DNA of 64,000 nucleotides from Candidatus Micrarchaeota archaeon (lineage in GTDB: Archaea > Micrarchaeota > Micrarchaeia > Norongarragalinales > UBA8480), in the NCBI GenBank assembly GCA_021812145.1, contig JAKAOM010000003.1, positions 11,737 to 75,736 of the forward strand, in the 5' to 3' direction. A program made the translations under genes and the position numbers. Position 1 is the stretch's first letter; each line of letters opens with the position of its first letter. Under the pieces are notes generated by a model, which was not told where the DNA came from, did no database searches, and saw only the letters and a list, made by a program, of their open reading frames with translations. Below, piece by piece: positions 25,480 through 39,736 of the stretch.

Positions 25480-25480
25480 C

Positions 25481-25852: not shown

Positions 25853-27145
25853 TCAAAGCGCAGGCAACAGGTTTATAATTATTATAACAAGAACGACTAG
25901 GCTTGCAAGCGATGTAAGCCTTGCCGCGGTCTTCTTTCCTTTCTTCTCCTTCAACTCCTCGTACATTAGCCTAGCCCCGTCAGTGATGTAAAGCGGGAGG
26001 ATGTTTATCACCGCTATAGAAATGCTTAACAGCACTATCCATTCAAGCGTTGTAGAAACACTGTTAATAAGCCACCCTGGAATGAAATAGAAACTTGCTA
26101 TAAAGTTAGCTCCCGATATGCCCAGAAAACCTTTTTGCATGAAAGTGGCGTTAAGGTTTTCTCCGTTAACCGTTACAGGAACAACCTCCCCTTTAACCGT
26201 TGCAGAGGTAAGGTTGGCGAGTTCTTGGATGTTTGTTATCTGCGTGTTGTTGAACGAAGTTATGACGTCGCCGCTTTTCAGAAAAAAGCTTGCAGTCGTG
26301 TTGGGCATAACCTGCTCAACCACCACTCCTTTTGATTGATTGTTGTAGAAAAGCATGAATGGTATTGTTATAATAGTGAAAACTACGAAAAGGTAGAAGT
26401 TTGCAGCGCTGCCTGCTATCAAAGCCCTTCTTTTGTTGTTGATTGTTGTTTGCGACAACTTTTTTTCGTCAGGCTCCACGAACGCGGCTATTGGAATGAA
26501 AGAAAGCAGAACAACCCCGCTGTTTTTTATTTTGATCTTTTCAATGGAGAACAAGAGAGCGTGAAACGCCTCGTGACTAACTATAATAAGTATTATCGCG
26601 ATTAAAGCCTCCCCTGGAATTGTAACGAAGGGAATTGCCAGAGTGGCTCCGGCTTGAGTGGAATGAGCGAAAAGTATTGCGTACGCGTTTGACCCCATCA
26701 AAGCAACCCCCATCAACGCCAAACCCCCTATCAATCCAGAAACAAGCACCAGAATTGAAGGGTTGTTCAATTCAAGAAGCGCTAAAAAAATAATGAAAAG
26801 AGTGGTGTAAACATAGAATTTTTTAGAATTTCCAAAAACATAGTAAGAATATGCCGGGCCGAAGCTTATGGCAAGGCCTAAATCAGTAAGTTTCTTGATT
26901 AATTTTTCATGCTTCAAAGCCAGCCTCTTGATTTTTTCCAACCCCTTCTCTGTCCTTTTGATATTTAAAAGCAGGTAATAATTTTCGGTGTTGAAGGCAA
27001 TGCTGAGAGTAACGCTGCAAGCCACCATAACAATAAGCACTAAAATGAGCTTTTCCAGAAAGTCAATCCTTGAAAAAGCAACGGCGAAAAAAATCAACAC
27101 TAACGCAACGAAAGCAACGAAACTCGCAGTTCTTTTAGAATTCAT
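25853..27145 (-). CDS. Site-2 protease-type (M50) membrane metalloprotease with PDZ-like insert
   Basis: HEAFHALL (HExxH) lies in a TM helix and NILPLYITDGARL matches NxxPxxxxDG. The protein is polytopic. Confidence 0.75.
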   Translation of the reverse strand: MNSKRTASFVAFVALVLIFFAVAFSRIDFLEKLILVLIVMVACSVTLSIAFNTENYYLLLNIKRTEKGLEKIKRLALKHEKLIKKLTDLGLAISFGPAYSYYVFGNSKKFYVYTTLFIIFLALLELNNPSILVLVSGLIGGLALMGVALMGSNAYAILFAHSTQAGATLAIPFVTIPGEALIAIILIIVSHEAFHALLFSIEKIKIKNSGVVLLSFIPIAAFVEPDEKKLSQTTINNKRRALIAGSAANFYLFVVFTIITIPFMLFYNNQSKGVVVEQVMPNTTASFFLKSGDVITSFNNTQITNIQELANLTSATVKGEVVPVTVNGENLNATFMQKGFLGISGANFIASFYFIPGWLINSVSTTLEWIVLLSISIAVINILPLYITDGARLMYEELKEKKGKKTAARLTSLASLVVLVIIIINLLPAL

Positions 27146-27296
27146 TTTTTTAACCTGCTCAACTCTTTATTGTATTTAACGAACAGACAATTTTTTAACC
27201 CTCTATGTTAAAAAACCTTTTTTGTCTGTTTTGGAAAAGGTTTTAAATACGCTCTTTTAAAGATTTTAATCATTCCAATTACAAAAGGTGCTGGCA

Positions 27297-27656
27297 ATGG
27301 ATTGCGAAGTTTGCGGAAAAAGAGAAGCGGTCGCGATAGCAATAGTGGACGGCGCTAGACTCAACGTTTGCGAAACCTGTCTTAAATTCGGAAGGCTTGA
27401 AAAAAAACTATTTGATGAAAACCCCGAGCGCGGTTTTGACTCTGGTCAAACGGAGCTTGTCCTGATAGATGGCTACGGTCGGGTTTTAAGCGCGGCCAGG
27501 CTAGGCAAAAAAATGACTGTTCAAGATTTGTGCAAAAAATTGAATATCAGCGAAAGGGATATTGAAAAATTCGAAAGCGAATCGCTTAAGCCTATTGAAA
27601 AGATAGCTCGAAAGCTTGAAAGAGAATTGAACGTGAAGATTCTCGTAGAGGAATGA
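27297..27656 (+). CDS. Archaeal MBF1-like protein (zinc ribbon + Cro/C1 HTH)
   Basis: MDCEVCGK...VCETC, then LSAARLGKKMTVQDLCKKLNISERDIEKFESE. Confidence 0.75.
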   Translation: MDCEVCGKREAVAIAIVDGARLNVCETCLKFGRLEKKLFDENPERGFDSGQTELVLIDGYGRVLSAARLGKKMTVQDLCKKLNISERDIEKFESESLKPIEKIARKLERELNVKILVEE

Positions 27657-27706
27657 ATAGTGCCGGGCATATATATTTTTAAATATTAACCTGTTATTTA
27701 TCTTCA

Positions 27707-28099
27707 ATGAATTTCAAAGGTCAAAGCGCTGTTGAATACCTTCTGCTTGCCGGCGGAGTGATTGTCTTCGTTGTTATAGCAGTAGTGTTGGTAAAAAACG
27801 TTGTCTTAACCCCCACTCAAAATGTTACTTCAAATCTTTCAAATCAAATAACAAATTATATTAACGCTTCAAACCAGACTGGCGTTTTTGCAATTCCCAC
27901 TTCAATTCAAAGCAGTAGCTACAGTTTTTCAAACATTGGCGGAGGAAGCGCTGGCGGTTTAAACGGGTCCGCATCTTCAGGAGTGGTCATGAACAGCACA
28001 AACTATGAGTTTACTAGCGCTTACATTACTTACCAACCTATTGGTTTAATAAAGAGCAGCGACTACGCTTTATGCGCTGGCCCTGCTTGCACTGGGTGA
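27707..28099 (+). CDS. Archaeal type IV pilin-like protein (class III signal peptide)
   Basis: MNFKG|QSAVEYLLLAGGVIVFVVIAVVLV, a KGQ cleavage motif with Glu at +5 and a hydrophobic helix. Confidence 0.65.
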   Translation: MNFKGQSAVEYLLLAGGVIVFVVIAVVLVKNVVLTPTQNVTSNLSNQITNYINASNQTGVFAIPTSIQSSSYSFSNIGGGSAGGLNGSASSGVVMNSTNYEFTSAYITYQPIGLIKSSDYALCAGPACTG

Positions 28100-28104
28100 T
28101 TTCA

Positions 28105-28926
28105 ATGGATTTTAAGAATTTTAAGGAAAGTTTCAAGCGCCTTGCGCTTTTGAGTGTTTTTATTTTATCGTTTATAGGCTTTGCAAGCGCTTCAATGCCT
28201 GCATTGATTGGTTTTCAGGGAACTTTAACAGACAAAAATGGCGTTGCGCTTAACGGCAGCGTTTCAATAACTTTCAATATCTACACTTCATCTTCTGGCG
28301 GAACTTCAATTTACAATGAAACCGACTCAGTAACAGCAAGTAACGGTTTGGTAAGTGTTTTAATCGGAGCCAACAATCCATTAACTTCTCTCTCCTTCAA
28401 CCAACCTTACTACCTTGGCGTTAATGTTAATAACGACGGTGAGATGGCCCCCAGGCTCGCCTTGAGCGACGCTCCTTACGCTTTCAACTCAATAACAGCT
28501 GTTAATTCGACTTATTCCAACAGTTCGGTAAACGCGAGCTACTCTTCAACCGCGAACAACTCTGCCTTTCTCGGTGGTGTTGCTGCTAGCAGTTATGTTC
28601 AGAGTGGTAGTAGTCCTTCTTTCAGCGGTTTGACTATAACCGGCAGCGCTTCAATCGGAGGTCACACGCCATGGACAAACGCAACCTGTTCCTGGACTAG
28701 CCTATCCACCTCACCTACTATTCCAGCTAATGGAGGATATGGCACGGCAACTGCTTCATGCAATTCTGGATTCACAGCAATAAGTGGCGAGTGCACTGCA
28801 GGCCTATCTGTAAATATGACTATAGCTGGATTTTATCCTAATTCAGGAGGGTGGTCGTGCTTTTTTTACAATCCCGCTTCTACAAGTGGAGTTGGCGCAG
28901 CTGAAGCTTTGTGCTGCCCAAGTTAA
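28105..28926 (+). CDS. Secreted protein with fibre-like N-terminal domain and Cys-rich C-terminus
   Basis: The internal ATG gives MDFKNFKESFKRLALLSVFILSFIGFASA, a signal peptide. The IGFQGTLTDKNGVALNGS...YYLGVNV...PRLALSDAPYAF pattern is seen in tail-fibre-like proteins. Confidence 0.55.
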   Translation: MDFKNFKESFKRLALLSVFILSFIGFASASMPALIGFQGTLTDKNGVALNGSVSITFNIYTSSSGGTSIYNETDSVTASNGLVSVLIGANNPLTSLSFNQPYYLGVNVNNDGEMAPRLALSDAPYAFNSITAVNSTYSNSSVNASYSSTANNSAFLGGVAASSYVQSGSSPSFSGLTITGSASIGGHTPWTNATCSWTSLSTSPTIPANGGYGTATASCNSGFTAISGECTAGLSVNMTIAGFYPNSGGWSCFFYNPASTSGVGAAEALCCPS

Positions 28927-28981
28927 TAAATAGTAGCTATTTTAATTGTTGTTGCTAACGTTGACATGCAATTTATATTTG

Positions 28982-29311
28982 GTGATTAGTGAAAAAACGG
29001 AAGGCAATTTAAGTAGTTTTGCGTTCTTTTTACTTCTATGAGTGTTGGAAGTGCAGTGTATGAACATGACAGGAGATGCTATAATTACCGCAAAACCAGT
29101 ATGTCAAAGCTTGATAAAAGCAGGTTAAGCGCATTGAAGGCTGCTTGAGTTTTGATAAAGAAAGATTTCATAAGTATTATGGAATTAACAAACAAAATTA
29201 TTCTGACTACATTAAAGAAATGGAGTTCTGATTCAACCACAGAAAAGAACCACTTTATCCATTACTAATCCAGCATAATACTCCAATTTGCTCCTAAAAT
29301 TCACTAATCAC
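28982..29311 (+). mobile_element. Decayed IS1595-family element / MITE with 12-bp perfect terminal inverted repeats
   Basis: GTGATTAGTGAA (28982-28993) and TTCACTAATCAC (29300-29311). The interior reads IEGCLSFDKERFHKYYGINKQNYSDYIKEMEF*FNHRKEPLYPLL, an IS1595 transposase C-terminal signature with an in-frame stop. Confidence 0.6.
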
Positions 29312-29312
29312 A

Positions 29313-29530
29313 TTATATTTTATAACTGCTACCCACATGCTTCTTTTTTTCGCTGTTGTGTTTTTCCTCGCTTCCTACCGCGTAGATTTTGTCTATTCTA
29401 GCCCCTCCGCTGACGTGGAATTTGGCTGATTTTGCAAAGACTTTTCAGTAGGGGTTCTCGAGTTTTGCTTTTCTTGTTTTTTTAATGAAGTTTTTGGCTG
29501 TTTTTCTCGTGTGGTTGTCGTATTTTTGAA
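29313..29530 (-). pseudogene. 3' fragment of a paralog of 29880..30926
   Basis: The reverse complement encodes ...ENPY*KVFAKSAKFHVSGGARIDKIYAVGSEEKH, against RFHVSGGARIDKIYAGGSEEKH at the C-terminus of the intact gene. It has an internal stop and abuts the IS remnant. Confidence 0.5.
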
Positions 29531-29879
29531 GATTTACTTTTTGCGAGACATACTGCTTTATAACTTTCTCTAATAATACTTGATGTTGCTATTATCATAA
29601 ATTTAAATGTTTAAAATACTTCAGTATAATGAAGTAAATTACATATTTTAGTTCAATATATTGAATTATTTTTGACTAGTTTAAACCATATTATAGCCAT
29701 ATTTTACATCATTCACAAGAAAAGTAAAAGAAAGCCTTCTGTGAATAAATCTTGCAGCAGTTGAATTCCATTTTTTTATAAATCCATTTTATCGCATTTT
29801 TATGTGATTATAGTGCTTTTCAAAAAATTTATTTTAAGTACCTCCAGCGTGTTTTTAACACATTCAACGTTAAATCTGC

Positions 29880-30926
29880 TTATTTTTGATAGACGTATGA
29901 CACTGCGATTCCCAGGCCTCTGTGTTTCTCCTCACTTCCTCCTGCATAGATTTTGTCTATCCTCGCCCCACCGCTTACGTGAAATCTGAGTGTGTCCTCT
30001 GGTTTTCTTCCCAGAAGTTGGAAGTATTCTTCAATGCCGAATTTCCTTCCTTTGTAGAGTTTTTTGATAAGACTCCTGTTTTTATTTTTGAATCTTTGGA
30101 ACGCGCCTGGCTTGTTGTCTATGCTTCCTTGCAGAAGCCTCCATTTTAGTTTTTCTCCATCAATCATATTTTTAGTCAGTTCTTGAAATTCTGACAGTTT
30201 TTTTGTAAGCTTTTCGTTCTCTTTTTCGTTCTTATGCGTTGCGCTTATGATTTCTCCGTTTTTATCTCTTTTTATGTCCATATCTGATTTTTTGAACAAA
30301 GATTCGGTGTGGTAAAGTCTTTCCATAGCTATTCTTTCCTGAGTTTTTTTAGGCAGTCTGAGAAAGCTTTTTTCATCCTTTAGTTTGACGTTGAATTTTT
30401 CCTCTATGTAACTCTTGAATTCAGCGTTTTTGAACAGCATTTTGTTAAGATCCTGTATAGGGCTGTGCGTTCTTATTTCAAGTCCTTTGTATCTTCCCAT
30501 AAATGCGGAGAAACCGTTAACCACCGTTTCTCCAATAGTTTTGGCATGATCTAGGTGTTGTTTTCTAAGTTCGTGTGCTATGCGCACGTCTTTTACCTTT
30601 ACATCAGGATCTACTGTTAACTGATATAAGGTTAGTTTGTCTCCTTTTTTGTCCATCCTTTCTTTAATGTTACCATATCCTATATGTTCACTCCAGGATG
30701 GTTTGAAGTCTTTTGTTATTATCCCGCTCATTTGTCCTATGACTTTTTCCTGTTTTCCCTCTCTTTGGTTCAATACTGCAACGAATTCTATCCCGTCGTT
30801 TACCCTGTTTTTTAATTCTTTTTCATCTACCTTCCGGTCCCACCTGCTATTTATCAATTTTTTAATACCTTCAATGTCCTTTTCCTCTGCCTTTCTGAAT
30901 CTTATATCGCTAGCGGATATTTCCAT
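29880..30926 (-). CDS. Hypothetical protein, possibly with an N-terminal GNAT-like acetyltransferase domain
   Basis: The N-terminus IRFRKAEEKDIEGIKKLINS resembles GNAT starts. The remaining 348 aa are not recognisable. Confidence 0.35.
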   Translation of the reverse strand: MEISASDIRFRKAEEKDIEGIKKLINSRWDRKVDEKELKNRVNDGIEFVAVLNQREGKQEKVIGQMSGIITKDFKPSWSEHIGYGNIKERMDKKGDKLTLYQLTVDPDVKVKDVRIAHELRKQHLDHAKTIGETVVNGFSAFMGRYKGLEIRTHSPIQDLNKMLFKNAEFKSYIEEKFNVKLKDEKSFLRLPKKTQERIAMERLYHTESLFKKSDMDIKRDKNGEIISATHKNEKENEKLTKKLSEFQELTKNMIDGEKLKWRLLQGSIDNKPGAFQRFKNKNRSLIKKLYKGRKFGIEEYFQLLGRKPEDTLRFHVSGGARIDKIYAGGSEEKHRGLGIAVSYVYQK

Positions 30927-30959
30927 ACTTTTGTTAGGACTATTAAAGTTTTAAAGGGT

Positions 30960-31604
30960 TTATGCTCTGGCAGTTATGAAATTTGGCCGTATTGTTTGAG
31001 TGTCAAAGAGAACTGCTTTTTTGAACATTAGAGACGCCACCTTAACAACTTTTGTGTTTCCTATCATTTCAACCCCTTCTTTTTTGTGCACGTGACCGCA
31101 GAAGTTGAGCAAGGGTTGATATTTTTCTATTATTTCTTTTATTGAAGTGCTTCCGATGTGCATTCCCCTCTCTTCATCAAACACTCCAAAGGGCGGGGTG
31201 TGGGTTACAAGAATTGTTTTACCTCCTTTTGCCTTTTGAAACAGTTTTTCCAGGCCATTGTATATTTCGCTCTCGCTTTTCTCGTTCACTGTGTGGAACG
31301 GCCCGCGCGGGCTGGAGCCGAACCCTATGAATGTGAATTCTTGAATCCTTCTTACTTCATTGTCTATGCTCACTCCTTTTTTTCTGAAGTATTCCTGCAG
31401 TTCTGGGTTTTCGTTGTTTCCGTTTATTGTCAGAGTTTTTTCAGGCTTCGTTATATCAAGCATTCTTTCAGCGTAGTCCACCGAATCAACGGCAGAATCA
31501 CCCAATATAAGCGTTAAGTCTGGATTGTTCTCCTTTTCGATAATTTCAAGAGTTTCAAGCGCTTCCTCTTCTGAGTGAAGATCAGATGCAGCAAGTATTT
31601 TCAT
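30960..31604 (-). CDS. Calcineurin-like metallophosphoesterase
   Basis: ASDLHSEE, LGDSAVD, NGNNE, VTHTPP and CGHVH. Confidence 0.8.
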   Translation of the reverse strand: MKILAASDLHSEEEALETLEIIEKENNPDLTLILGDSAVDSVDYAERMLDITKPEKTLTINGNNENPELQEYFRKKGVSIDNEVRRIQEFTFIGFGSSPRGPFHTVNEKSESEIYNGLEKLFQKAKGGKTILVTHTPPFGVFDEERGMHIGSTSIKEIIEKYQPLLNFCGHVHKKEGVEMIGNTKVVKVASLMFKKAVLFDTQTIRPNFITARA

Positions 31605-31606
31605 TA

Positions 31607-32002
31607 TTACAACCTTTCTTTTGATGCTTCAAACTCTTTGATTATGTTTTTGTCATAGGTTGCTATTTTTGATTGCGTTGTAAGCGCTAGATGAACTATC
31701 GAAGCGTCTATGAAGCTTAGCTTGTGTCTTTGTTTTTCAAATATTTTGATAGTGCTTTCAAAATCGTAGTAATCGAGGTGGTATATTTCAACATTTTCAG
31801 TGCTTTTGATTGCTTCAATAAATGATATCGCTTTTTGTAATCCTGCTTTATTGTTGAGAACTGTTGCTGTTTCGTTAACAACATAATCGCTTATAAGTTG
31901 TGTTTCCATTTCAATCTTTTTCATTTCTGAAATCGCCTGTTGGTGAAAGGCGTCATCTTCGTGTAAGAGCGCTACCAAAAAGGAGGTGTCAATTATTATC
32001 AT
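31607..32002 (-). CDS. vapC: PIN-domain toxin (VapC-like)
   Basis: MIIIDTSFLVALL.., with later acidic residues (SDYVVNE, SFIDAS). It overlaps the upstream antitoxin gene by 4 bp. Confidence 0.8.
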   Translation of the reverse strand: MIIIDTSFLVALLHEDDAFHQQAISEMKKIEMETQLISDYVVNETATVLNNKAGLQKAISFIEAIKSTENVEIYHLDYYDFESTIKIFEKQRHKLSFIDASIVHLALTTQSKIATYDKNIIKEFEASKERL

Positions 32003-32232
32003 TTATATATCACTTCATCTACGTTTGTGCTTAGATTCTTTCCTCCTCCTTTGAATTTGATTTTTTCATACGCTTCAAGAAGGCTTTTATACTTCTTTTT
32101 GGTTTCTGTCTCTTTTCCAAACATCATAAGGTTGCGTATTGCTTCAGCCGTGCTGAGATTATGCTGTATTGCATAATCATGTATAATATGCCTTGTTTTT
32201 TCATCCACGCCGCGTATTGTATAAGTGCTCAT
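31999..32232 (-). CDS. vapB: VapB-type antitoxin (RHH-like)
   Basis: The 77 aa begin MSTYTIRGVDEKTRHIIHDYAIQHNLSTAEAIRNLM, a beta-strand plus two helices. It is coupled to the PIN gene. Confidence 0.6.
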   Translation of the reverse strand: MSTYTIRGVDEKTRHIIHDYAIQHNLSTAEAIRNLMMFGKETETKKKYKSLLEAYEKIKFKGGGKNLSTNVDEVIYK

Positions 32233-32269
32233 GCTGATATTATTTAAAAACTTAAACTTTTAAATGTTT

Positions 32270-32285
32270 GTATTACGTGTAATAC
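32270..32285. other. 16-bp palindrome GTATTAC-GT-GTAATAC in the 60-bp spacer where strand codon bias flips
   Basis: Read directly from the sequence. It is the only obvious structured element between 32232 and 32293. Confidence 0.5.
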
Positions 32286-32292
32286 TGTTGTT

Positions 32293-33015
32293 TCAGCTTC
32301 CGAGTATGCTTTGAAGCTGGGCTGGGGATTGGACTCCCACGTAAATCTTGCCGTTAATGAAAAAAGTAGGGGTTCCCTGCACTCCTAGATTTCTCCCAGT
32401 CTGAGTATCCTGCATCACGCTGCTGTTGTACTTTCCGCTTTCAAGACAGGAGTTAAACTCGCTTGAATTCAACCCAAGGTTCAAGGCATATTTTTCCAGA
32501 TTGGTAACGCTCGCCCAACCGCTGTTCTCCCCGCCCTGATGCGAATACAGATAATTATGATAATTCCAGTACTGCCCCTGATCGCCTGCGCAGCGAGCGG
32601 CTTCGGCAGCGCTTAAAGAGTCAGGGCCTATAAGAACAAAATCCCTGAAAGCGAAAACAGCCTTTCCCGAATTCACATAATTCATTATTGTTTGTTCAGA
32701 TTCGTTGTAGAAAAGCCCGCAGTAAACGCACTGATAATCGGCGAATTCTACAATCTGGTTTGGAGCCGAAGCGTTTCCAATGTAATCGCTCCCAAGAGGA
32801 ACGACTAAACCCTTGCTGGTTGTGTTTTGGCCTGAATTAACGGTTGTTGAATTGTTCTGGCTTGAAGCGTAAACATTTAAATTCCCGTTAGAATTCAGCT
32901 GGCCTGTGCTAACAACCGAGTTTGAAATAACCCCCGCCCCGTAAATAATAGCCACTGAAATCAAAACCGCTGCTACTATCACTGCAATCCAAGTGTAATC
33001 TTTTCCCTCTTTCAT
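32293..33015 (-). CDS. DsbA-like thiol:disulfide oxidoreductase, membrane-anchored
   Basis: EFADYQCVYCGLF (CxxC), an N-terminal TM helix and C-terminal GVQGTPTFFINGK. Confidence 0.8.
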   Translation of the reverse strand: MKEGKDYTWIAVIVAAVLISVAIIYGAGVISNSVVSTGQLNSNGNLNVYASSQNNSTTVNSGQNTTSKGLVVPLGSDYIGNASAPNQIVEFADYQCVYCGLFYNESEQTIMNYVNSGKAVFAFRDFVLIGPDSLSAAEAARCAGDQGQYWNYHNYLYSHQGGENSGWASVTNLEKYALNLGLNSSEFNSCLESGKYNSSVMQDTQTGRNLGVQGTPTFFINGKIYVGVQSPAQLQSILGS

Positions 33016-33078
33016 GCTTTTAACATTTTGAACGGATTGTTTAAATTCCTTTTGATTGATTTTGAACGAAAAGCGGTT

Positions 33079-33567
33079 TTAGGCATAGCCGACCCTGCAA
33101 GATTCGCAGTTAGCGTCTATTTTATTTGACGTTAGATAAATGGAAACTAGAAGCAGGAGAATGGTAGCTGCTTTTATCTCAGATGAATATTTTGAAAGTA
33201 TAAGCATTCCCGGAAGGCCTATGAAGGAAATGAGGAAAACCGCGCAGGCAGTGCAGGTTGCCACCCCTGTAACCCCTGCTATCAACCCTGCCATGAAAGC
33301 GCTCAAACCTCCCACCACTCCCCTTTTCGAAATTCTCCCAATAACGTCGAAAGAATACAGTTGAAGAGTCAAACTCAAAGCGAAAAGAATTGAAACGATT
33401 AGAATGAAAGCATAATCCAACCCGGTGATTGTATTAGACGCGTTCAATGGATTGTAGGGAATCGTGGTCAAGGCAAGATAAAAAAGAATCGCTGAAACAA
33501 CCGCTATTATTATTGAAATCGAAAGATATTTTAGGTTGGAACAGCATTTTTTTATGTTATTTAGCAT
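33079..33567 (-). CDS. 4-TM membrane protein with CxxC pairs (candidate redox partner of the DsbA-like protein)
   Basis: ATCTACAVF lies within TM3, CESC is C-terminal and a CC pair sits near the N-terminus. It is adjacent to the dsbA-like gene on the same strand. Confidence 0.45.
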   Translation of the reverse strand: MLNNIKKCCSNLKYLSISIIIAVVSAILFYLALTTIPYNPLNASNTITGLDYAFILIVSILFALSLTLQLYSFDVIGRISKRGVVGGLSAFMAGLIAGVTGVATCTACAVFLISFIGLPGMLILSKYSSEIKAATILLLLVSIYLTSNKIDANCESCRVGYA

Positions 33568-33901
33568 ACTTCTTCATGAAATCCTTTATGAAAGGAAGAG
33601 TGTATTTTTTACCTTCAAGAGCCTCATACATAAGGTAAAGCCACACAACAAGGAAAACTACTCCGAAAACAAAGCTTAAAAACCAAATTATAACCTGAGT
33701 GAATGGAATGAATGAAATTAAAAATTCGATTATCCTAAGAACAATCCACACAACAAGGAAAACAACGCTTACAACAATCGACTGAATAGAGTGAAATTTT
33801 ACAAAATCGTCATCCTCCTTGAAAACAAGCATTAAAATCCCGCTTAAAACAAGCAAAACGTAAGAAGCGGCCGCCAAAACATTGCTATCTCCTTTTTTCA
33901 T
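33557..33901 (-). CDS. DUF4870-like small membrane protein
   Basis: LAAASYVLLVLSGILMLVFKEDDDFVKFHSIQSIV is the family's signature N-terminus. Confidence 0.5.
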   Translation of the reverse strand: MKKGDSNVLAAASYVLLVLSGILMLVFKEDDDFVKFHSIQSIVVSVVFLVVWIVLRIIEFLISFIPFTQVIIWFLSFVFGVVFLVVWLYLMYEALEGKKYTLPFIKDFMKKYAK

Positions 33902-34029
33902 AACTTCACAATAACGTTTTAAATGCTTTTAAAACTTTCCTTTTGAAGAATCTTTTTTTTCAAATACCAAAAAGATTAAAAAGGATTCAAGAGAATTTTC
34001 TAAAAAATCCAAAAGGTTTGCAAAAGCGA

Positions 34030-37000
34030 ATGAAAACAAAAGGCCAAGGCGCTCTCGAATATATATTATTACTAGCCGGCGTTTTGCTTGTAGTTGCAAT
34101 AGTGGTGGTGATACTTAAAAGCATTGTTTTAGCGCCTGCTTACCAGAACGTCAATTCCTCAAACGCGGTTCTTTCAGACCTTGAAAACGTCAACATTGCA
34201 TTGCCATCAAACAGCTTGTTTTACATTAGTTTTCCTGGCGGCCCTTTAAGTCTAACTTCAGGCCAGGCGGTATTGTTCGTTAATAATAACGACACGGCCC
34301 AAAACCTTACTGTTCTAAACCCAGACGGAAGCACCTACTATACATCAACACTGCAGCCGGGCCAGAACGTAACGCTAACCTTCACAAATTCAGGCAACTA
34401 CCAAGCTTCTTTCACAGGTTCAAGCGGAGTTCAAACCATAACCGTTTCAGGAGGTTCAACCCCCCCATCAAGCAACTGCGCGCCGCCAGCAACAGGAAAT
34501 TGGGTGGTAAGTGGAAGCGTGGTTTGCAGCAGTACCACCATAATATTAAATGGAAGTTTGATAGTGAACTCTGGAAACAGCATTTCTCTTAACAGTGTAA
34601 CGCTTCAAATCAACGACTCGTCAGGAGTGGGAATAAACATAAACGGAGGAAGCGCGAACATTCAAAGCAGCGTCATAAACAATTACACTTCAACCACATT
34701 CAACTTCACAGTAGCCAGCGGTTCAAACTTCACTCTTCAAGGCTCGACAATAAGCGGTTTGAACACAGGAGTGGCTTTTCTAGTCGAATCAAACAACGCT
34801 CAAATAATATCAAACACAATTCAAGGTGACTACGCTTTAACCGTTTTCAACGCTACCAACGATATAATACAAGGCAACACTCTTCAAGGCAACACAAGAG
34901 GGCTTTACCTTGTAAACTCAAGCTACGATACGATTTCAGGAAACAACATTCAATCCAATTCTGGAAGCCTTTTTGTGAATTTTAATGGCGCAAGTCTAAT
35001 CGGAACCAGCGCTGGAAACGTTTACAGCCAAAACACTTTCAACAACCTGCCCTCTGGCACCGACTTAATAATTGGCGCTACAAACGGGGATTCAGTAAAA
35101 TACAACACGTTTGAAAACTCACAAAATGGTTTAGAAGTAGGCATTAACCAGAACATGCTTATAACCGAAAATCAATTCACAAACCTCGAACAGGTTGGAA
35201 TAACCCTTATCTATGAAGACTCTGCAAACACTGTAACTTCAAACACCTTCAGCAACGTTGGGCAGGGAATTTCAATTCAAGACTCTTACGGAGATATAAC
35301 CGTTCAATCAAACACGTTCACCAACAGCAGCGCGGTTTATGTTACAAACTCCACCTCAGATAATGTAATCTCGAACACGTTCAACCTTTACCCAGGCCAA
35401 ACAGGAGTGTTATACTCCAGCAACACCGCTAACCTTCTTGTAAACTCAAACACTGTCAATAACGGGGACTACGGCTTCAACGGACCTGTGGGAGGAGGAA
35501 GCAATTTTTCAAACATAACCATATCAAACAACGTTTTTTCAGGCCAGGCGGTGGACGCTATACACCTGTATAACATTGAAAACTCCACAATAACCGGAAA
35601 TACAATCTACAATTCAGCAGGCTATGGAATCGACGTTTTCGGAAGCAACAACTCTAATATTTCAGGCAACACAATCCAGAACAGCACTACTTTGGACGTT
35701 CAGGTTACCTACAATTCAGGTTGTTCCTCCCCATCAAATAACACGCTGATTCAGTCAAACAACTTCTCTTTCGGAGTTTTCCGCTCAACAACAGACAGCG
35801 CTGTAAACGACGTTGGCGTCTGCTCTGACTGCAACAATTCAGGTTCAGGAACTATCACAAGCATTCTTCAAAACCTGCCTAACAATAATTCAATAACCGT
35901 AAGTCAAGAAACCTGCCCGACCCCGCCAAGCTCAGGTTGCCCTTACGTAGAAACTTCAACCAACGGAGATTGGACGTATCAAGGAGGGACAATCCTGGGT
36001 TTGGTTACACCCTACCTTGCCGCCTGGAGGACAGAAAAACTCTACAACACCGGCGCTTCTACCAATCTGTCTGTTATGATTCATGAAATCCCTTCGGAAA
36101 CCGGCTATTACAATGGGTTTAAGCTTTTGGTTGTGGACCACCCCACCGGGCAAGCCTTCTTTAACCAAGATGAGGATTCAACTCCCTTAATTGTAAACAA
36201 TCCTTTGAATGTTTTGAACTGCACTGACTCCTACGATAGGAATTGCCTGCCCCAGATTCAAAATAACGAGTTCTCATTCCTTCAAGGTAAGTCCGCAATT
36301 CAAGGCTTTACAATCCTAAACCAGCAGAACGCGGCCCAAAACGCTTGGTTCTCCCCGATCAACTTTTCAAATCCACTACAACTCAATGATTGGATTCAGC
36401 TAACCCTGCCTTCAGGATGGAAGAATGCCTCTGAAATAAAACTTTTGGTAACCGGAACCGCTACCGGCTTGAACTCTCTTGCAGAAGACTACTGGGGAGA
36501 GAACGGTTTTAACCACAATATCGTAGGGTTTTTAATTCAAAACACTCCTCTGGCAGATATTGTAAAGAAAGGCATTTACTACTTCTCGAGTTTCAGTGTT
36601 GAAGCCCAGCAGGCCGACGGTTCCTGGAAAGTTGTTGTGGGAAACAACAATTGCGTTTTGGATGACTACAAAACGTGCGCTATATCCATTCCTGTTGAAG
36701 AAGTTCAAACAGGAAGGGTTAGAATTGTTGAACCCGCCTTTGTCAACGTTATTGATTCTGTTAAAGTCGACTATACACCAAGCTTTGCCTTTGTCTCTTC
36801 CATTCTCCCTTCAAGCATTAACGCAGAAGGCATTTCTTACGCCGAGAGCAATTCAGGTCTTTTAACTAGTGAATTAACAGTTCCGGAGAACAATTTCGTT
36901 ATTGTCAATTTTACAGGACTTCCCCCAGTAAAACCTGGCTTTAAGAGAACCTATTTCCTTGACTTCAACGGCTGGTACGACCCGCAACCAATTCAGGATT

Positions 37001-37167
37001 TGAGTTTAATACAAAAAACAATAAACAGCCTTAAACTTGCCGACGCTATAAGCCAGGTTGCTTTTTTGGGCTCTCCAATTATAGAAGAGCAGATTTTCCT
37101 GAAAGCCTATCCTGAAAGCGTTATTTGCAATGTTTTCGCTTCAAAATTCTGCGTGAAAAGTGATTAA
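34030..37167 (+). CDS. Giant pilin-signal adhesin-like protein with parallel beta-helix (PbH1/NosD-like) repeats
   Basis: The ATG at 34030 gives MKTKG|QGALEYILLLAGVLLVVAIVVVIL, a class III signal peptide. More than 15 repeats of the type N-x-I-x-G-N-T/ISNN follow, then a ~430-aa C-terminal domain. Confidence 0.75.
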   Translation: MKTKGQGALEYILLLAGVLLVVAIVVVILKSIVLAPAYQNVNSSNAVLSDLENVNIALPSNSLFYISFPGGPLSLTSGQAVLFVNNNDTAQNLTVLNPDGSTYYTSTLQPGQNVTLTFTNSGNYQASFTGSSGVQTITVSGGSTPPSSNCAPPATGNWVVSGSVVCSSTTIILNGSLIVNSGNSISLNSVTLQINDSSGVGININGGSANIQSSVINNYTSTTFNFTVASGSNFTLQGSTISGLNTGVAFLVESNNAQIISNTIQGDYALTVFNATNDIIQGNTLQGNTRGLYLVNSSYDTISGNNIQSNSGSLFVNFNGASLIGTSAGNVYSQNTFNNLPSGTDLIIGATNGDSVKYNTFENSQNGLEVGINQNMLITENQFTNLEQVGITLIYEDSANTVTSNTFSNVGQGISIQDSYGDITVQSNTFTNSSAVYVTNSTSDNVISNTFNLYPGQTGVLYSSNTANLLVNSNTVNNGDYGFNGPVGGGSNFSNITISNNVFSGQAVDAIHLYNIENSTITGNTIYNSAGYGIDVFGSNNSNISGNTIQNSTTLDVQVTYNSGCSSPSNNTLIQSNNFSFGVFRSTTDSAVNDVGVCSDCNNSGSGTITSILQNLPNNNSITVSQETCPTPPSSGCPYVETSTNGDWTYQGGTILGLVTPYLAAWRTEKLYNTGASTNLSVMIHEIPSETGYYNGFKLLVVDHPTGQAFFNQDEDSTPLIVNNPLNVLNCTDSYDRNCLPQIQNNEFSFLQGKSAIQGFTILNQQNAAQNAWFSPINFSNPLQLNDWIQLTLPSGWKNASEIKLLVTGTATGLNSLAEDYWGENGFNHNIVGFLIQNTPLADIVKKGIYYFSSFSVEAQQADGSWKVVVGNNNCVLDDYKTCAISIPVEEVQTGRVRIVEPAFVNVIDSVKVDYTPSFAFVSSILPSSINAEGISYAESNSGLLTSELTVPENNFVIVNFTGLPPVKPGFKRTYFLDFNGWYDPQPIQDLSLIQKTINSLKLADAISQVAFLGSPIIEEQIFLKAYPESVICNVFASKFCVKSD

Positions 37168-37169
37168 AA

Positions 37170-37601
37170 ATGAACATAACAAGAATAACAATAGGCGTTT
37201 TCGGATTGGCAGTGCTTCTAATAGCAGTCTACTTTCTTTTCCTATCCCAAAGCCAAACCGCTCAAGGCGGGCCTTCAGCCACTACTTCAAACGTTTCAAA
37301 CCCCCTCCCTCCTTCAATGCCATCAGGGCAAACCTCCCTCCCGACAAACTCCTACACCCAATTGAACTTCTCTTTTCCAGGAGAGCAGCTTCAAGTAAAG
37401 AATTATTATGTCAAAATGCTAAACTACACTAACACCACTGCCTTTCTTCAGCTTTTAGATTCAAACCAACAAGTTTTGGGAAGCCAAACGCTGCTTTTGA
37501 ACGAGCCCTTCTCAACCACCTACTACACCGCTGTTTTGGAAAGCGTTTCAAACGGCTCGGTAAACGTCGGTGTTGAAATAAATGGGGTTGTAATCAAATA
37601 A
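37170..37601 (+). CDS. Small signal-anchored secreted protein
   Basis: ITRITIGVFGLAVLLIAVYFLFL is the TM helix. It starts 3 nt after the adhesin stop. Confidence 0.5.
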   Translation: MNITRITIGVFGLAVLLIAVYFLFLSQSQTAQGGPSATTSNVSNPLPPSMPSGQTSLPTNSYTQLNFSFPGEQLQVKNYYVKMLNYTNTTAFLQLLDSNQQVLGSQTLLLNEPFSTTYYTAVLESVSNGSVNVGVEINGVVIK

Positions 37602-37743
37602 AACTCTTGGGTAATTTTTCATAAAACAGGGTAAAAGATTAATTAGCGCGCTATAAAAAACGCAGGGTTTGAACTACTGTAAAATTTTTTCAATAGTTAG
37701 TTTTTTAAAACACCCCTGCTTTAAAATTAAATAAGGTGATGCT

Positions 37744-38085
37744 ATGATGGACGAGTTTGATAAGGCGAGAGATTTGGGATTGATTGGTTTGGGGCTTCTG
37801 GCGGTTTCAACCTCTAAATTGGTTTCCAAGGTTGACGACATGATAGCTAAAAACCAGGTTAATAAAAAAGAGGGGCAGAAACTGATAAAAACACTCAAAC
37901 AGGAGGGAGAAAACAGGAGAATGGAAGTTGAAAACCTCGTCAAAAACGAGTTGAAAGACTTCTACAAAAACGTCTTCGTTTCAAGAAAAGACTTTGAAAA
38001 ACTGGAGAAAAAAATTGAAGCGATAGAGAAAAAAATAGAGAAAAACCTGGGTAAAAACCTAAATTCAAAGAAAAGAAAAAAGTGA
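37744..38085 (+). CDS. K/E-rich helical protein (phasin-like?), directly upstream of ubiB
   Basis: 113 aa, probably coiled-coil, ending in the A-rich run AAAAGAAAAAAGTGA. Confidence 0.45.
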   Translation: MMDEFDKARDLGLIGLGLLAVSTSKLVSKVDDMIAKNQVNKKEGQKLIKTLKQEGENRRMEVENLVKNELKDFYKNVFVSRKDFEKLEKKIEAIEKKIEKNLGKNLNSKKRKK

Positions 38086-38209
38086 TTCAAAAATAGAAAT
38101 AGACTTTTTCAAGGGAAGCGTCAGGGAGTTCAAGCGTTTTCAACGCATAGTAGGCGTTTTCGTAAAATACGGTTTTGGAGGCGTTTTATCAAAAATTTCA
38201 GAACTCGGA

Positions 38210-39736
38210 GTGCACGAAAGGCAGAAAATACAAAAACTGCCTGAAGGAGTGCGGTTGAGACTGGCTTTGAACGAGCTAGGGCCAGCGTTCATAAAACTCG
38301 GCCAGCTTTTAAGCACAAGAACAGATTTCTTCCAGAAAGAAGTTGTCGACGAGCTTGAAAAACTAGATGACAACGCCGAACCATTCGACTTCTCTGAAGT
38401 TGAAAAAATCTTCAGCGAGGAAACAGGCTTGAAAATAAGCGAAGCGTTCAAAAGCTTTGAAAAAAAACCAATAGCATCAGCGTCAATAGCTCAGGTACAC
38501 AAAGCTGTTCTGAAAAACGGTTCTGTGGTAGCAGTAAAAGTTCAAAGGCCCAACGCAGAGGAAGAATTCAAGACAGACGTTGAAATTCTGAAGCAAGCCG
38601 CAACCCTCATTGAGAAATATTTCGAGGAAGCGAGAATATACAACCCCTCTTTAATGGTGGAGGAGTTCGAAAGAAGCGTAAACCGAGAGCTGGACTTTAG
38701 AGTAGAAGCTAGAAACGCGGAAAGGTTCAGGAACAACTTCAAGCAATTCAAGGACGTTCTAATTCCAAAAGTTCATTCAACTCTAAGCGGGAGGAAAATA
38801 CTTGTTCTGGACTTCGCCGAAGGTGTTTCGGCAAAGCAGCTTAAAGCATCCGCCAAAGAAAAAAAGGAGTTGGCCGAAAAAATAACCTTCCTCATAAGCA
38901 AGCAAATCTTTATCGACGGGTTCTTCAACGCCGACCCGCACCAGGGTAACTTCCTATTCACCAAAAAGAAAGTGGCGATGATAGACTTTGGAATGGTAGG
39001 TTTTGTCGACGACGAAATGAAGGAGATAATAGGAGGGTTGTACTCCAACCTGGTTCAGAAAAACCTTGACGCTTTCATGGATAATTTTGTTAAAATATCC
39101 AAAATATCAGACGAGTCGGACGTGGAAAGCTTCAAAAGCGAAATGAACGACTTCATAGAGGAATTCTACGGCGTAACGCCAAACCAGATAGAAATAGGAA
39201 GAATCTTCTTTGAGTTAAGCTCCATGGCAAGAAGATACAAAATCTCAATAAACCCGAAGTTTTTGCTTCTTGCAAAAGTATTCGTAAGCCTTGAAGGAAT
39301 GCAGAAAACCCTTGATCCAGACTTCAACATGATAGAAAACGCAAAAATCTTCATAAAAGAAGTGGCCAAAGAACAATCCAAACCTTCGAATATCGCAAAG
39401 AAAACAATGAAAAACCTATCCTCAATCCAAACCTTCCTAACAACCTTCCCGCCTAAAATAACGCAGATACTTGACAAGGCAGGCTCCGGCAAATTCAAAA
39501 TGGAGTTTGAACACGTAGGACTTGAAAAACCTGTTTACAGAATAGACCGGGCGGTAAACAAAGTCTCAATAAGCATGATAATAGCCGCGCTTCTGGTTTC
39601 AAGCTCCCTGATAATACTCGCAAAGGCAGGCCCGCTATTCGACGGTTTTTCTATTCTTGGGTTTTTTGGGCTTGCGTTGGCGTTGTTTCTAAGCTTTTGG
39701 CTGGCCACCGCAATACTTCTTGAAGGAGAATTCTAA
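38210..39736 (+). CDS. ubiB: UbiB/ABC1 (AarF) atypical kinase family protein with 2 C-terminal TM helices
   Basis: LRLALNELGPAFIKLGQLLSTRTDFF, ASIAQVHKA, FNADPHQGNF, IDFGMVG. The frame is open from 38063 and encodes a family-typical N-terminus, but the first canonical start is the GTG at 38210. Confidence 0.85.
   Translation: MHERQKIQKLPEGVRLRLALNELGPAFIKLGQLLSTRTDFFQKEVVDELEKLDDNAEPFDFSEVEKIFSEETGLKISEAFKSFEKKPIASASIAQVHKAVLKNGSVVAVKVQRPNAEEEFKTDVEILKQAATLIEKYFEEARIYNPSLMVEEFERSVNRELDFRVEARNAERFRNNFKQFKDVLIPKVHSTLSGRKILVLDFAEGVSAKQLKASAKEKKELAEKITFLISKQIFIDGFFNADPHQGNFLFTKKKVAMIDFGMVGFVDDEMKEIIGGLYSNLVQKNLDAFMDNFVKISKISDESDVESFKSEMNDFIEEFYGVTPNQIEIGRIFFELSSMARRYKISINPKFLLLAKVFVSLEGMQKTLDPDFNMIENAKIFIKEVAKEQSKPSNIAKKTMKNLSSIQTFLTTFPPKITQILDKAGSGKFKMEFEHVGLEKPVYRIDRAVNKVSISMIIAALLVSSSLIILAKAGPLFDGFSILGFFGLALALFLSFWLATAILLEGEF

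What the first reader, a model, noticed from the sequence alone, without database searches (positions are those of the whole stretch)
32233..32292. Abrupt flip of strand-specific synonymous-codon bias at ~32.25 kb: replication landmark or inversion breakpoint
Left of 32,232, minus-strand genes (GGDEF, both ftsZ, polD, cyclase, phosphoesterases, vapBC) use mostly A/C-ending codons (ATA, ACA, GCA, GGA, CTA, AAC, TTC). Plus-strand genes there (3..2393, 11359..13311, tnpB, pilin-like genes) use T/G-ending codons (GTT, ATT, GCT, GGT, TTG, AAT, GAT).

Right of 32,293 the rule inverts. Minus-strand genes (dsbA-like, 33557, 39733, 43288, 49630, 55454) are T/G-ending. Plus-strand genes (adhesin, ubiB, mazG-like, AAA ATPase) are A/C-ending. 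Silent sites on the + strand are therefore G+T-rich on the left and A+C-rich on the right regardless of gene orientation, which is the signature of a mutational strand asymmetry.

The flip falls within a 60-bp spacer that contains the palindrome GTATTACGTGTAATAC. Majority gene orientation flips at the same place (minus on the left, plus on the right). Under the usual rule that the leading strand is G/T-rich, this is a fork-convergence (terminus, dif-like) point. The gene-orientation bias instead looks like divergence from an origin. That conflict is itself unusual. The transposase at 62186..63376 (minus strand, A/C-ending) violates the local rule, as expected for a recent insertion.
Basis: partly seen in the sequence, partly recalled or inferred. 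Interest (0 to 1): 0.7.

Follow-up and report, generated by a model that had tools for sequence, protein, structure and literature searches.

The report
Replication-direction switch in an archaeal chromosome
At about 32.3 kb the two DNA strands of this uncultivated archaeon swap their mutational bias whichever way the genes point, which most likely marks where two replication forks meet, a known kind of landmark with some odd details.

Summary
The flip is real. At four-fold degenerate sites the + strand AT skew is -0.29/-0.14 (plus/minus genes) left of 32.25 kb and +0.22/+0.33 right of it. A single change-point falls at 32.15-32.45 kb. Two-fold codons, Ile codons and intergenic DNA flip too. 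It is not gene-specific codon usage, an assembly chimera or an inversion: three assemblies share the junction and gene order across it is conserved in five genomes. The 16-bp palindrome belongs to the vapBC promoter/operator. It travels with that cassette and is absent where vapBC is absent, so it is not dif or ORB.

Two caveats apply. G versus C at four-fold sites does not flip (+ strand C>G on both sides). The gene-orientation bias is weak (about 57% and 70%).

In relatives the same switch lies about 3 kb away, after the 348-aa gene, with no rearrangement. There is no Orc1/Cdc6, Xer, ORB array or sizeable spacer at the switch.

Best reading (about 0.5): a boundary between oppositely replicated domains with convergent, terminus-type polarity. 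This is a new instance of a known kind. An origin with reversed polarity and a non-replicative domain boundary are not excluded.

A separate 3.8-kb hyper-skewed block (46.5-50.3 kb) is the strangest feature in the window.

The parts
1..32232 (.). Left compositional domain. The + strand is T-rich at silent and intergenic sites whatever the gene orientation. It continues at least 6.7 kb beyond the window start.
   Evidence: The profile is a flat plateau (theta about -0.5). The extension is seen in L034. The same polarity is present in relatives R2, R3 and R4.
32233..32292 (-). 60-bp spacer holding the vapBC promoter: a TATA-like element (about 32252-32262) and the operator-like palindrome GTATTACGTGTAATAC (32271-32286). 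The estimated position of the switch falls here or just to its right.
   Evidence: Sequence. The palindrome plus TATA is conserved upstream of vapB in L016, L017 and L018 and absent in L014 and L020, which lack vapBC. Change-point.
31607..32232 (-). vapBC toxin-antitoxin cassette (PIN toxin 31607-32002, antitoxin 32003-32232). It is the last left-type unit and is present or absent among relatives.
   Evidence: Pfam PIN and DUF6290. Absent from L014 and L020.
29880..31604 (-). 348-aa conserved gene and metallophosphoesterase. These genes carry left-type codon usage only in this genome. In four relatives their orthologues carry right-type usage.
   Evidence: Sense A68/T50 here versus A112/T257 in relatives (p=2e-7). 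A/G-ending codons 137/44 versus 384/330 (p=5e-8). They are also the most divergent copies at protein level.
32293..33901 (-). DsbA-like, 162-aa and DUF4870 genes: the first right-type genes. They are minus-strand genes with T/G-ending codons, the same as in all relatives.
   Evidence: There is no difference from relatives (p=0.4-1).
32293..64000 (.). Right compositional domain. The + strand is A-rich (and C>G) at silent and intergenic sites whatever the gene orientation. It is heterogeneous in strength.
28927..29879 (.). Scar region: an IS1595-type transposase remnant (29121-29270), a duplicated 3' end of the 348-aa gene (29319-29429) and a 320-bp AT-rich stretch. It is homologous in position to the variable island where the switch lies in L014 and L020.
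46463..50282 (.). Hyper-skewed block inside the right domain. The + strand is 70-85% A+C, and silent sites are almost free of T and G in genes of both orientations.

Best explanation
The flip marks a boundary between two chromosomal domains that are replicated in opposite directions, with the polarity of converging forks (a terminus-type switch).

Shown:
- The strand bias at silent and non-coding sites reverses at about 32.3 kb independently of gene orientation.
- It does so without any rearrangement.
- The two flanking domains keep their polarity in several related species.

Inferred:
- The cause is replication-associated mutational asymmetry. The strand that serves as lagging-strand template is single-stranded for longer and accumulates C>T and A>G changes, so it becomes T- and keto-rich.
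- On that reading the + strand is the 'leading' strand on the left and the - strand on the right, so forks move toward the junction.

The exact position is not set by a conserved sequence. In this genome the switch lies between dsbA and the vapBC promoter. In relatives it lies about 3 kb further on, after the 348-aa gene, beside a variable island of toxin-antitoxin, defence and IS genes. The sharp edge in this genome may be sharpened by a recombination junction at that point.
For: 1. The AT skew at four-fold sites, the two-fold Y and R codons, the Ile codons and the intergenic DNA all reverse at 32.15-32.6 kb in genes of both orientations.
2. It is not gene-specific codon usage. Orthologues of the metallophosphoesterase and the 348-aa gene have the opposite codon class in four relatives, while dsbA and its neighbours do not differ.
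3. It is not an artefact. The junction is identical in the 335,887-bp contig, in a Logan contig and in contig DAHVKZ010000004.1.
4. There is no inversion. Synteny across the junction holds in five genomes.
5. The left-domain polarity is conserved in R2, R3 and R4. The right-domain polarity is conserved in L014, L018 and L020. Same-orientation genes on the two sides of the switch differ in L014 (p=3e-8) and in L020 (p=2e-8). Silent sites are saturated at these distances (about 80% nucleotide identity), so both domains are at their own equilibrium.
6. The polarity is convergent. Keto/T-rich strands converge, and GTTG counts are 194 (+) vs 109 (-) on the left and 87 (+) vs 248 (-) on the right. 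This matches the oriC-to-dif direction of these words in Thermococcales (PMC2958812). A DPANN archaeon is reported to have a bacterial-type cumulative GC skew with cdc6 at the origin (PMC5905446).
7. In L016 every gene is T>A and G>C on its sense strand. In this lineage the exposed, non-template strand therefore becomes keto-rich, which supports reading the keto-rich strand as the exposed one.
8. There is no room for an origin. The spacer is 60 bp here, the stop codons are adjacent in L014, and there is no Orc1/Cdc6 or repeat array nearby.
Against: 1. G vs C at four-fold sites does not reverse in this genome or in R3. By the classical GC-skew criterion the whole window lies in one replichore, and cumulative GC skew falls monotonically.
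2. With this polarity most genes in the window, including polD, both ftsZ genes and a tRNA, would be head-on to replication.
3. In Thermococcales termination regions are broad and origins are sharp (PMC2958812). Here the left edge is sharp.
4. No dif site or Xer recombinase was found (and the Pfam scans).
5. Only 64 kb plus about 12 kb of flanks of the chromosome could be read, so the global skew pattern is unknown.
Confidence: 0.5

Rival explanations
1. It is a replication origin, and in this lineage the leading strand is A-rich (reversed AT polarity). Genes diverge from it, as expected for co-orientation with replication.
For: Most genes point away from the junction (about 57% on the left, about 70% on the right). 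polD, both ftsZ genes and tRNA-Val would then be co-directional. polD lies close to oriC in Pyrococcus (my own knowledge). The left edge of the switch is sharp, as at archaeal origins (PMC2958812). AT-skew polarity is known to vary between taxa (PMC3269012).
Against: The spacer at the switch is 60 bp and is taken up by the vapBC promoter. In L014 the switch falls at adjacent convergent stop codons. No ORB-like repeats, unwinding element or Orc1/Cdc6 lie within 30 kb here or within 10 kb in relatives (and the Pfam calls). The position shifts by 3 kb between genomes without rearrangement. The polarity is opposite to that at mapped or cdc6-anchored archaeal origins (PMC2958812, PMC5905446). It would also be opposite to the sense-strand bias seen in L016. 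The orientation bias is statistically weak.
Confidence: 0.12
2. The window lies within a single replichore, as the unchanged G/C skew suggests. The A/T flip would then be a boundary between two long compositional domains of another, unknown cause, for example domain-wide transcription or exposure effects or different repair regimes.
For: The four-fold GC skew on the + strand is negative on both sides, here and in R3. Cumulative GC skew shows no inflection. The genome clearly has local strand-asymmetric domains unrelated to a replichore switch: the hyper-skewed block 46463-50282, and the M50 sub-domain, which is conserved in R2.
Against: Every other measure (4F A/T, two-fold Y, two-fold R, Ile, intergenic) would then be reversed over at least 39 kb on the left, which needs more special pleading than one non-flipping component. 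In relative R2 the GC skew does mirror across the two domains. No known process acts on both gene orientations over tens of kb except replication.
Confidence: 0.18
3. The sharp step is a homologous-recombination junction that joins DNA of two related lineages whose replication boundary lay at slightly different places. The true present-day boundary is nearby but need not be at 32.25 kb.
For: To the right of the junction the window is closest to L014 (DsbA 84%, DUF4870 86%). To the left its proteins are the most divergent of all genomes (55-68% versus 63-85% among relatives). Homologous recombination is reported in a DPANN population (PMC5905446). This explains a step sharper than expected for unconstrained fork merging.
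Against: Faster divergence on the left is equally expected if those genes changed mutational regime. No donor lineage with left-type metallophosphoesterase and 348-aa genes was found. This refines the main explanation rather than replacing it.
Confidence: 0.12
4. It is an artefact: a chimeric assembly, a recent inversion breakpoint, or expression-linked codon usage that happens to correlate with orientation.
For: A/C-ending codons are also the Watson-Crick-decoded 'optimal' codons, and ftsZ shows the most extreme C-ending preference. Minority-orientation genes are more hydrophobic (r=-0.4).
Against: Three assemblies agree. Synteny holds in five genomes. The class effect survives the hydrophobicity control. 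Intergenic DNA flips. Toxin-antitoxin and regulator genes follow the strand rule. Orthologues change class between genomes.
Confidence: 0.03

Closest known systems
Skew switch at the replication terminus (dif region) of bacteria and of Methanosphaera stadtmanae
   Same: A downward jump of T-A/keto skew and of G/T-rich polar words on the reference strand. The switch is independent of gene orientation and is flanked by variable, mobile-element-rich DNA (PMC2958812; bacterial cases from my own knowledge).
   Different: No dif site, Xer gene or fork-trap element was found. G/C at four-fold sites does not switch. The position drifts by about 3 kb between related species. The local majority of genes would be head-on.
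Strand-specific codon usage in bacteria with strong replication bias (Borrelia, Chlamydia, Lawsonia)
   Same: Genes fall into two codon-usage classes according to the strand on which they lie (PMC2671203, PMC2089121).
   Different: Here the organism is an archaeon with PolD. The asymmetry is carried mainly by A/T and by transitions at two-fold sites, not by G/C.
Cumulative-skew origin/terminus pattern in the DPANN archaeon 'Candidatus Forterrea' and in Thermococcales
   Same: Archaea with a bacterial-type polarity switch. The origin is anchored by cdc6 and is sharp (PMC5905446, PMC2958812).
   Different: Those cases are defined by GC skew over whole genomes. Here only a fragment could be read, and the GC skew is the one component that does not switch.
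Archaeal oriC (ORB/mini-ORB repeats around an AT-rich unwinding element, usually next to orc1/cdc6)
   Same: A sharp polarity switch with genes diverging from it.
   Different: The polarity is opposite. There are no repeats, no adequate spacer and no orc1/cdc6.
VapB/AbrB-type antitoxin operator palindromes in toxin-antitoxin promoters
   Same: A short perfect inverted repeat (7-2-7) overlapping the promoter of the TA operon and co-inherited with the cassette.
   Different: Binding by the antitoxin was not tested. This explains the palindrome, not the skew flip.

Membership tests
Replichore boundary (origin or terminus) defined by strand compositional asymmetry | Silent-site and non-coding skew changes sign at one point, independently of gene orientation | tested here: met
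   for A/T, two-fold, Ile and intergenic sites.
Replichore boundary (origin or terminus) defined by strand compositional asymmetry | GC skew changes sign at the same point | tested here: not met
   4F GC skew is -0.11 to -0.17 in all four classes. The same holds in R3. It is mirrored only in R2.
Replichore boundary (origin or terminus) defined by strand compositional asymmetry | The switch is an extremum of the whole-chromosome cumulative skew and of marker frequency | not testable with these tools
   Only the window plus about 12 kb of flanks could be read. No read data were available.
Replication terminus | Keto/T-rich (leading-type) strands and G/T-rich polar words converge on the site | tested here: met
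   Polarity calibrated on PMC2958812.
Xer/dif site | A 28-bp site made of 11-bp imperfect inverted repeats around a 6-bp spacer, in non-coding DNA at the switch | tested here: not met
   The palindrome is 7-2-7. No 11-6-11 repeat lies in the support interval apart from AT-rich promoter sequence. The best match to the P. abyssi dif is 16/22, equal to shuffled sequence.
Xer/dif site | A XerA-type tyrosine recombinase is encoded in the genome | not testable with these tools
   None is present in the window (Pfam).
Archaeal oriC | An intergenic region with an AT-rich unwinding element flanked by repeated ORB or mini-ORB elements | tested here: not met
   The spacer is 60 bp and holds the vapBC promoter. 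No repeat family lies at the switch. In L014 the switch falls at adjacent stop codons.
Archaeal oriC | An adjacent orc1/cdc6 gene | tested here: not met
   No Orc1/Cdc6 domain was found in any scanned ORF of the window or of the L020 flank.
Inversion breakpoint | Gene order or orientation across the point differs from that in related genomes | tested here: not met
   Collinear in L014, L016, L018 and L020. L018 and L020 continue collinear to window 23.7-28.9 kb.
Toxin-antitoxin promoter operator (for the palindrome only) | An inverted repeat overlapping the TA promoter and co-inherited with the cassette | tested here: met
   Conserved arms with a variable centre in L016, L017 and L018. Absent together with vapBC in L014 and L020. 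Protein binding was not tested.

The most novel reading that the evidence does not exclude
The archaeon has a site-limited, polar fork-arrest or termination point, something not known in archaea. Forks coming from the right would never pass 32.25 kb. This would give a flat, fully polarised left domain, a step at the site, and a graded right domain in which merging positions are spread over 32-44 kb. In the same genome, a 3.8-kb block (46.5-50.3 kb) would be kept persistently single-stranded on one strand, by a D-loop-like or long antisense transcription unit starting at the repeat-rich region at 50.28-50.42 kb. That exposure would drive strand-specific deamination strong enough to rewrite protein composition.
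Probability: 0.1. Interest if true: 0.8.

Novelty: new member of a known kind. Interest (0 to 1): 0.42.

Why it matters
Replication landmarks are almost unknown for uncultivated small-genome archaea, and most archaea show no usable GC skew. This lineage carries a strong silent-site asymmetry that is readable from A/T and two-fold codons. That asymmetry could be used to map replication domains, to check assemblies of these MAGs, and to ask whether archaeal forks merge at defined places.

The case is also a caution. The standard cumulative GC-skew test would have missed this switch entirely. If the terminus reading holds, most genes in this region, including polD and ftsZ, are transcribed head-on to replication, which would be unusual.

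Tried and rejected
- **Walking along the 335,887-bp source contig.** Look-ups return at most 10 kb of flank and only for window-encoded proteins. Only about 5.5 kb on the right (L019) and 6.7 kb on the left (L034) were gained. The GGDEF protein was not on record.
- **dif search.** The 11-bp-arm inverted-repeat scan and the match to the P. abyssi dif were at chance level. A look-alike at 61344-61371 was dropped because its score does not exceed shuffles.
- **ORB or iteron search around the flip.** Only promoter-like TTTAAATG motifs and a gene-fragment duplication turned up.
- **Step versus ramp.** The data cannot discriminate between them.
- **'Fossil terminus' idea.** The idea was that the left domain had recently changed replication direction, with GC relaxed and AT not yet. 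It was rejected because two-fold transition sites are fully mirrored and because R3 shows the same non-flipping GC skew.
- **Membrane-protein or expression confound.** There is a partial effect only; the strand class remains significant.
- **Hyper-skewed block as a virus or plasmid.** No PHROG or Pfam support. The only IMG/VR hit to the TGCGGGAT array is an unrelated 68% GC contig.
- **Rfam and tRNA scans.** They found only tRNA-Val at 13566-13638.

Full report
**What the window is**

The window is archaeal chromosome. Pfam-supported genes include:
- the PolD small and large subunits (9243-10712 and 5910-9242, minus strand) and two FtsZ genes (3261-5490, minus);
- a class-III-signal-peptide beta-helix protein (33943-37167, plus) and an ABC1/UbiB kinase;
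- many toxin-antitoxin, regulator and IS genes.

The only RNA gene found is tRNA-Val at 13566-13638.

The window belongs to a 335,887-bp NCBI/ENA contig. The same DNA occurs in a Logan contig that is 100% identical over 25371-40401. It also occurs in contig DAHVKZ010000004.1 of GCA_027320585.1, which is 99.986% identical over 1-14322. By its coordinates that contig runs on to window position 40401. The closest relative's record is labelled Candidatus Marsarchaeota by its submitters. Several genes have CPR/DPANN-type homologues. I did not resolve the taxonomy.

Yes. At four-fold degenerate sites the + strand AT skew is -0.29 and -0.14 in plus- and minus-strand genes left of 32,232. It is +0.22 and +0.33 in plus- and minus-strand genes right of 32,293.

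A one-change-point model for A versus T places the change between 32,386 and 32,398. The support interval is 32,194-32,608 and the likelihood-ratio statistic is 220. A logistic model that also uses two-fold, Ile and intergenic sites, with separate intercepts per site class, gives 32,150-32,450.

The reversal is seen in every four-fold family and in every two-fold amino acid. For example, ATA is 0.67/0.65 of Ile codons in left-minus/right-plus genes but 0.34/0.43 in left-plus/right-minus genes.

Non-coding DNA reverses too. Of the intergenic segments, 20 of 21 on the left are T>A on the + strand and 22 of 27 on the right are A>T.

**Could it be gene-specific codon usage?**

A/C-ending codons are also the Watson-Crick-decoded codons favoured by translational selection. 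ftsZ is the most extreme C-ending gene. Minority-orientation genes are more hydrophobic (r = -0.4).

Four results argue against this explanation:
- After controlling for hydrophobicity, the orientation-by-side class still predicts the A/C-ending fraction (t about 6).
- Low-expression toxin-antitoxin and regulator genes obey the strand rule on both strands.
- Intergenic DNA flips.
- Orthologues change class between genomes.

On the last point, the metallophosphoesterase (30960-31604) and the 348-aa gene (29880-30926) have sense A68/T50 and A/G-ending 137/44 in the window. In four relatives the figures are A112/T257 and 384/330 (p = 2e-7 and 5e-8). The three genes just right of the junction do not differ from their orthologues (p = 0.4-1).

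**Caveats to the observation**

First, G versus C at four-fold sites does not flip. The + strand is C>G by 0.11-0.17 in all four classes. This holds with or without the anomalous regions, and gene-bootstrap intervals exclude a positive value on the left.

Decomposed, the left domain is mainly pyrimidine-rich on the + strand. The right domain is mainly amino-rich (A+C). The A/T components therefore add, and the G/C components stay equal in sign. Two-fold sites, which can change only by transitions, are mirror-symmetric.

Second, a step and ramps of up to 16 kb fit equally well. The profile is a flat plateau (theta about -0.5) from 0 to 32 kb. It then jumps by about 0.7, and the right side is heterogeneous and rises to a peak of 1.74 at 48-50 kb.

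Third, the orientation bias is modest. L034 shows two giant plus-strand genes just left of the window. With these included, about 57% of left-domain coding length is on the minus strand. About 70% of the right domain is on the plus strand (my tally).

**What the palindrome is**

GTATTAC-GT-GTAATAC lies directly upstream of a TATA-like element, about 25 nt before the leaderless start of the vapB antitoxin. The same arms, with a variable 2-nt centre (AC, AT, AA), and the same TATA element precede vapB in L016, L017 and L018. They are absent from L014 and L020. In those two genomes the vapBC cassette is missing and dsbA is followed within 3-14 nt by the metallophosphoesterase gene.

The palindrome is therefore part of the mobile vapBC promoter/operator. 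It is not a chromosomal landmark. Archaeal dif is an 11-6-11 inverted repeat (PMC2958812). Neither an inverted-repeat scan nor a match to the P. abyssi dif gave anything above shuffled controls.

**Rearrangement and assembly error**

The gene order is UbiB, beta-helix protein, DUF4870, 162-aa gene, DsbA, (vapBC), metallophosphoesterase, 348-aa gene. This order is conserved in L014 (DsbA 84% identical), L016 (71%) and L018 (73%). L020 (74%) keeps the order from DUF4870 through the 348-aa gene, but has unrelated genes in place of the beta-helix protein and UbiB.

L018 and L020 continue collinear with the window's left flank: the pilin-like genes at 27.7-28.9 kb, the M50 peptidase and the 23729-24019 gene. 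Three assemblies contain the junction.

An inversion breakpoint and a chimera are therefore excluded. The 950-bp gap at 28.9-29.9 kb is a scar holding an IS1595 transposase remnant and a duplicated 3' end of the 348-aa gene.

**The switch in relatives**

The left-domain polarity (window-orientation + strand T-rich in genes of both orientations) is present in three further species around ftsZ and polD:
- R2 (L022-L024): minority genes have AT4 of 0.61-0.68, with n up to 741.
- R3 (L030).
- R4 (L031).

The right-domain polarity is present in L014, L018 and L020.

In L014 and L020 the switch lies after the 348-aa gene. In L014 it falls at two adjacent convergent stop codons (12051/12053). In L020 it falls in a 300-bp spacer. 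Same-orientation genes on the two sides differ with p = 3e-8 (L014) and 2e-8 (L020).

The landmark is therefore old and stable to within a few kb across species that are only about 80% identical in nucleotide sequence. It is not tied to a sequence. It sits beside a variable island of AbiEii, PIN, AAA_14 and IS genes.

L016 is different. All of its genes are T>A and G>C on their own sense strand. That gives the sign of the transcription-type (exposed-strand) bias in this lineage.

**Mechanism and polarity**

Both domains are at compositional equilibrium but with opposite sign, and nothing is rearranged. The simplest cause is that they are replicated in opposite directions.

The strand that becomes T- and keto-rich is expected to be the one exposed as lagging-strand template. 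This follows from established deamination chemistry, and the sense-strand bias in L016 agrees.

That strand is + on the left and - on the right, so forks converge on the junction. GTTG and TGGT are G/T-rich words that are enriched on the leading strand and point from oriC to dif in Thermococcales (PMC2958812). They point toward 32.25 kb from both sides (GTTG: 194 on + vs 109 on - left of the junction; 87 vs 248 right of it).

An origin is further disfavoured by anatomy. The spacer is a 60-bp promoter here, there is no spacer in L014, and there are no ORB-like repeats. No Orc1/Cdc6 lies within 30 kb here or in the L020 flank (Pfam calls). I therefore favour a terminus-type switch, at about 0.5.

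**What does not fit**

- The G/C skew does not flip. This is shared with R3, while R2 mirrors.
- Most local genes, including polD, ftsZ and the tRNA, would be head-on to replication.
- The left edge is sharp, whereas termination in Thermococcales is broad (PMC2958812).

The sharpness may reflect a recombination junction. Right of the switch the window is closest to L014 (84-86%). Left of it, its proteins are the most divergent of all genomes (55-68% versus 63-85% among relatives). A change of mutational regime would produce the same pattern.

A reading in which the window lies in one replichore and the A/T flip has another cause cannot be excluded (0.18). It requires five independent measures to be anomalous over at least 39 kb, instead of one.

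**Comparison with what is known**

Strand-specific codon usage and skew switches at origin and terminus are well known in bacteria (PMC2671203, PMC2089121, PMC3269012). They are also documented in some archaea, including a DPANN archaeon (PMC5905446, PMC7111523, PMC2958812).

This is a new instance. Its distinctive details are that the signal is carried by A/T and two-fold transitions, that G/C is constant, and that the position drifts among relatives. It is not a dif site, not an oriC and not an inversion junction by the defining features I could test.

**Seen in passing**

Inside the right domain, 46463-50282 is 70-85% A+C on the + strand. Silent sites are almost free of T and G in the plus-strand AAA_14/DUF4143 gene (A82 C45 G21 T3). 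The same is true of the minus-strand gene 49630-50196 (+ strand A64 C16 G3 T0).

That minus-strand gene is real, with 77 homologues. Its protein has 49% V+G+F+L+W+C against 29-32% in homologues. The pressure therefore acted in place and was strong enough to change amino acids.

The block ends at the promoter/5' leader of that gene. Next to it lie a perfect 11-bp inverted repeat (50278-50307) and five direct TGCGGGAT copies (50353-50414; 1.06 expected in the whole window). I could not explain it. There is no viral or plasmid signal.

Noticed in passing
window 46463-50282 (weaker: 41288-45812): Hyper-skewed block. The + strand is 70-85% A+C. Silent sites are nearly free of T and G in genes of both orientations and in non-coding DNA. 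The minus-strand gene 49630-50196 (77 homologues) has its protein shifted to 49% V+G+F+L+W+C against about 30% in homologues. The direction is the same as the surrounding domain but about four times stronger.
   Followed up: partly
window 50278-50414: A perfect 11-bp inverted repeat (CTAAATAGTAG-8-CTACTATTTAG) is followed by five direct copies of TGCGGGAT at 10-22-bp spacing (1.06 expected in the whole window). It lies exactly at the right edge of the hyper-skewed block and upstream of gene 50481-52337. It could be an iteron-like or regulator-binding array. The only IMG/VR match is an unrelated high-GC contig.
   Followed up: partly
window 47400-47445 and 48841-48886: A 46-nt direct repeat (98% identical) brackets the AAA_14/DUF4143 ATPase gene. 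This suggests a recent insertion or duplication within the hyper-skewed block.
   Followed up: no
whole window; L018 and L030: G vs C at four-fold sites is C>G on the + strand on both sides of the switch, in this genome and in relative R3. It mirrors across the switch in relative R2. No mechanism was found. A balance between depurination and deamination on the exposed strand is one idea.
   Followed up: partly
window 23729-27145; L020 17451-19559: The M50 peptidase and the neighbouring small gene carry right-type skew inside the left domain. Their orthologues in R2 do the same, so this is a conserved local exception, possibly linked to membrane-protein codon usage.
   Followed up: partly
window 24214-25479: A TnpB (Cas12f1-like TNB domain) gene is absent from the syntenic stretch of L020. 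The Logan contig L001 ends inside it. It is a lineage-specific insertion.
   Followed up: no
window 28927-29879: Scar region: an IS1595-type transposase remnant (29121-29270; 72% to residues 147-196 of the L014 transposase), a duplicated 3' end of the 348-aa gene (29319-29429) and a 320-bp AT-rich stretch. In relatives this position holds an AbiEii toxin-antitoxin pair and other island genes.
   Followed up: yes
window 40401: Two independent assemblies (Logan contig L001 and DAHVKZ010000004.1 of GCA_027320585.1) both end exactly at window position 40401. This points to a repeat or a strain-variable junction there.
   Followed up: no
window 52294-53694: A low-GC island (GC about 0.29, GC3 0.17-0.19) contains a SAM-dependent methyltransferase. 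It is probably recently acquired DNA.
   Followed up: no
L016 (whole locus): In relative R4 all genes of the syntenic right-domain stretch are T>A and G>C on their own sense strand. The skew there follows transcription, not position, although R4's ftsZ/polD region (L031) does show a strand effect.
   Followed up: partly
window 38210-39736: The ABC1/UbiB kinase has its best matches among species-representative genomes in bacteria (33-38% identity: Desulfuromonadales, Endomicrobiales and others). This suggests an inter-domain transfer, or that the lineage is missing from that collection.
   Followed up: no
window 61344-61371: ATTTAAATATTGTTTAATATATCTAAAT has a right arm matching 10 of 11 bases of the P. 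abyssi dif arm. The full-site score is no better than in shuffled sequence, so it is treated as chance.
   Followed up: yes
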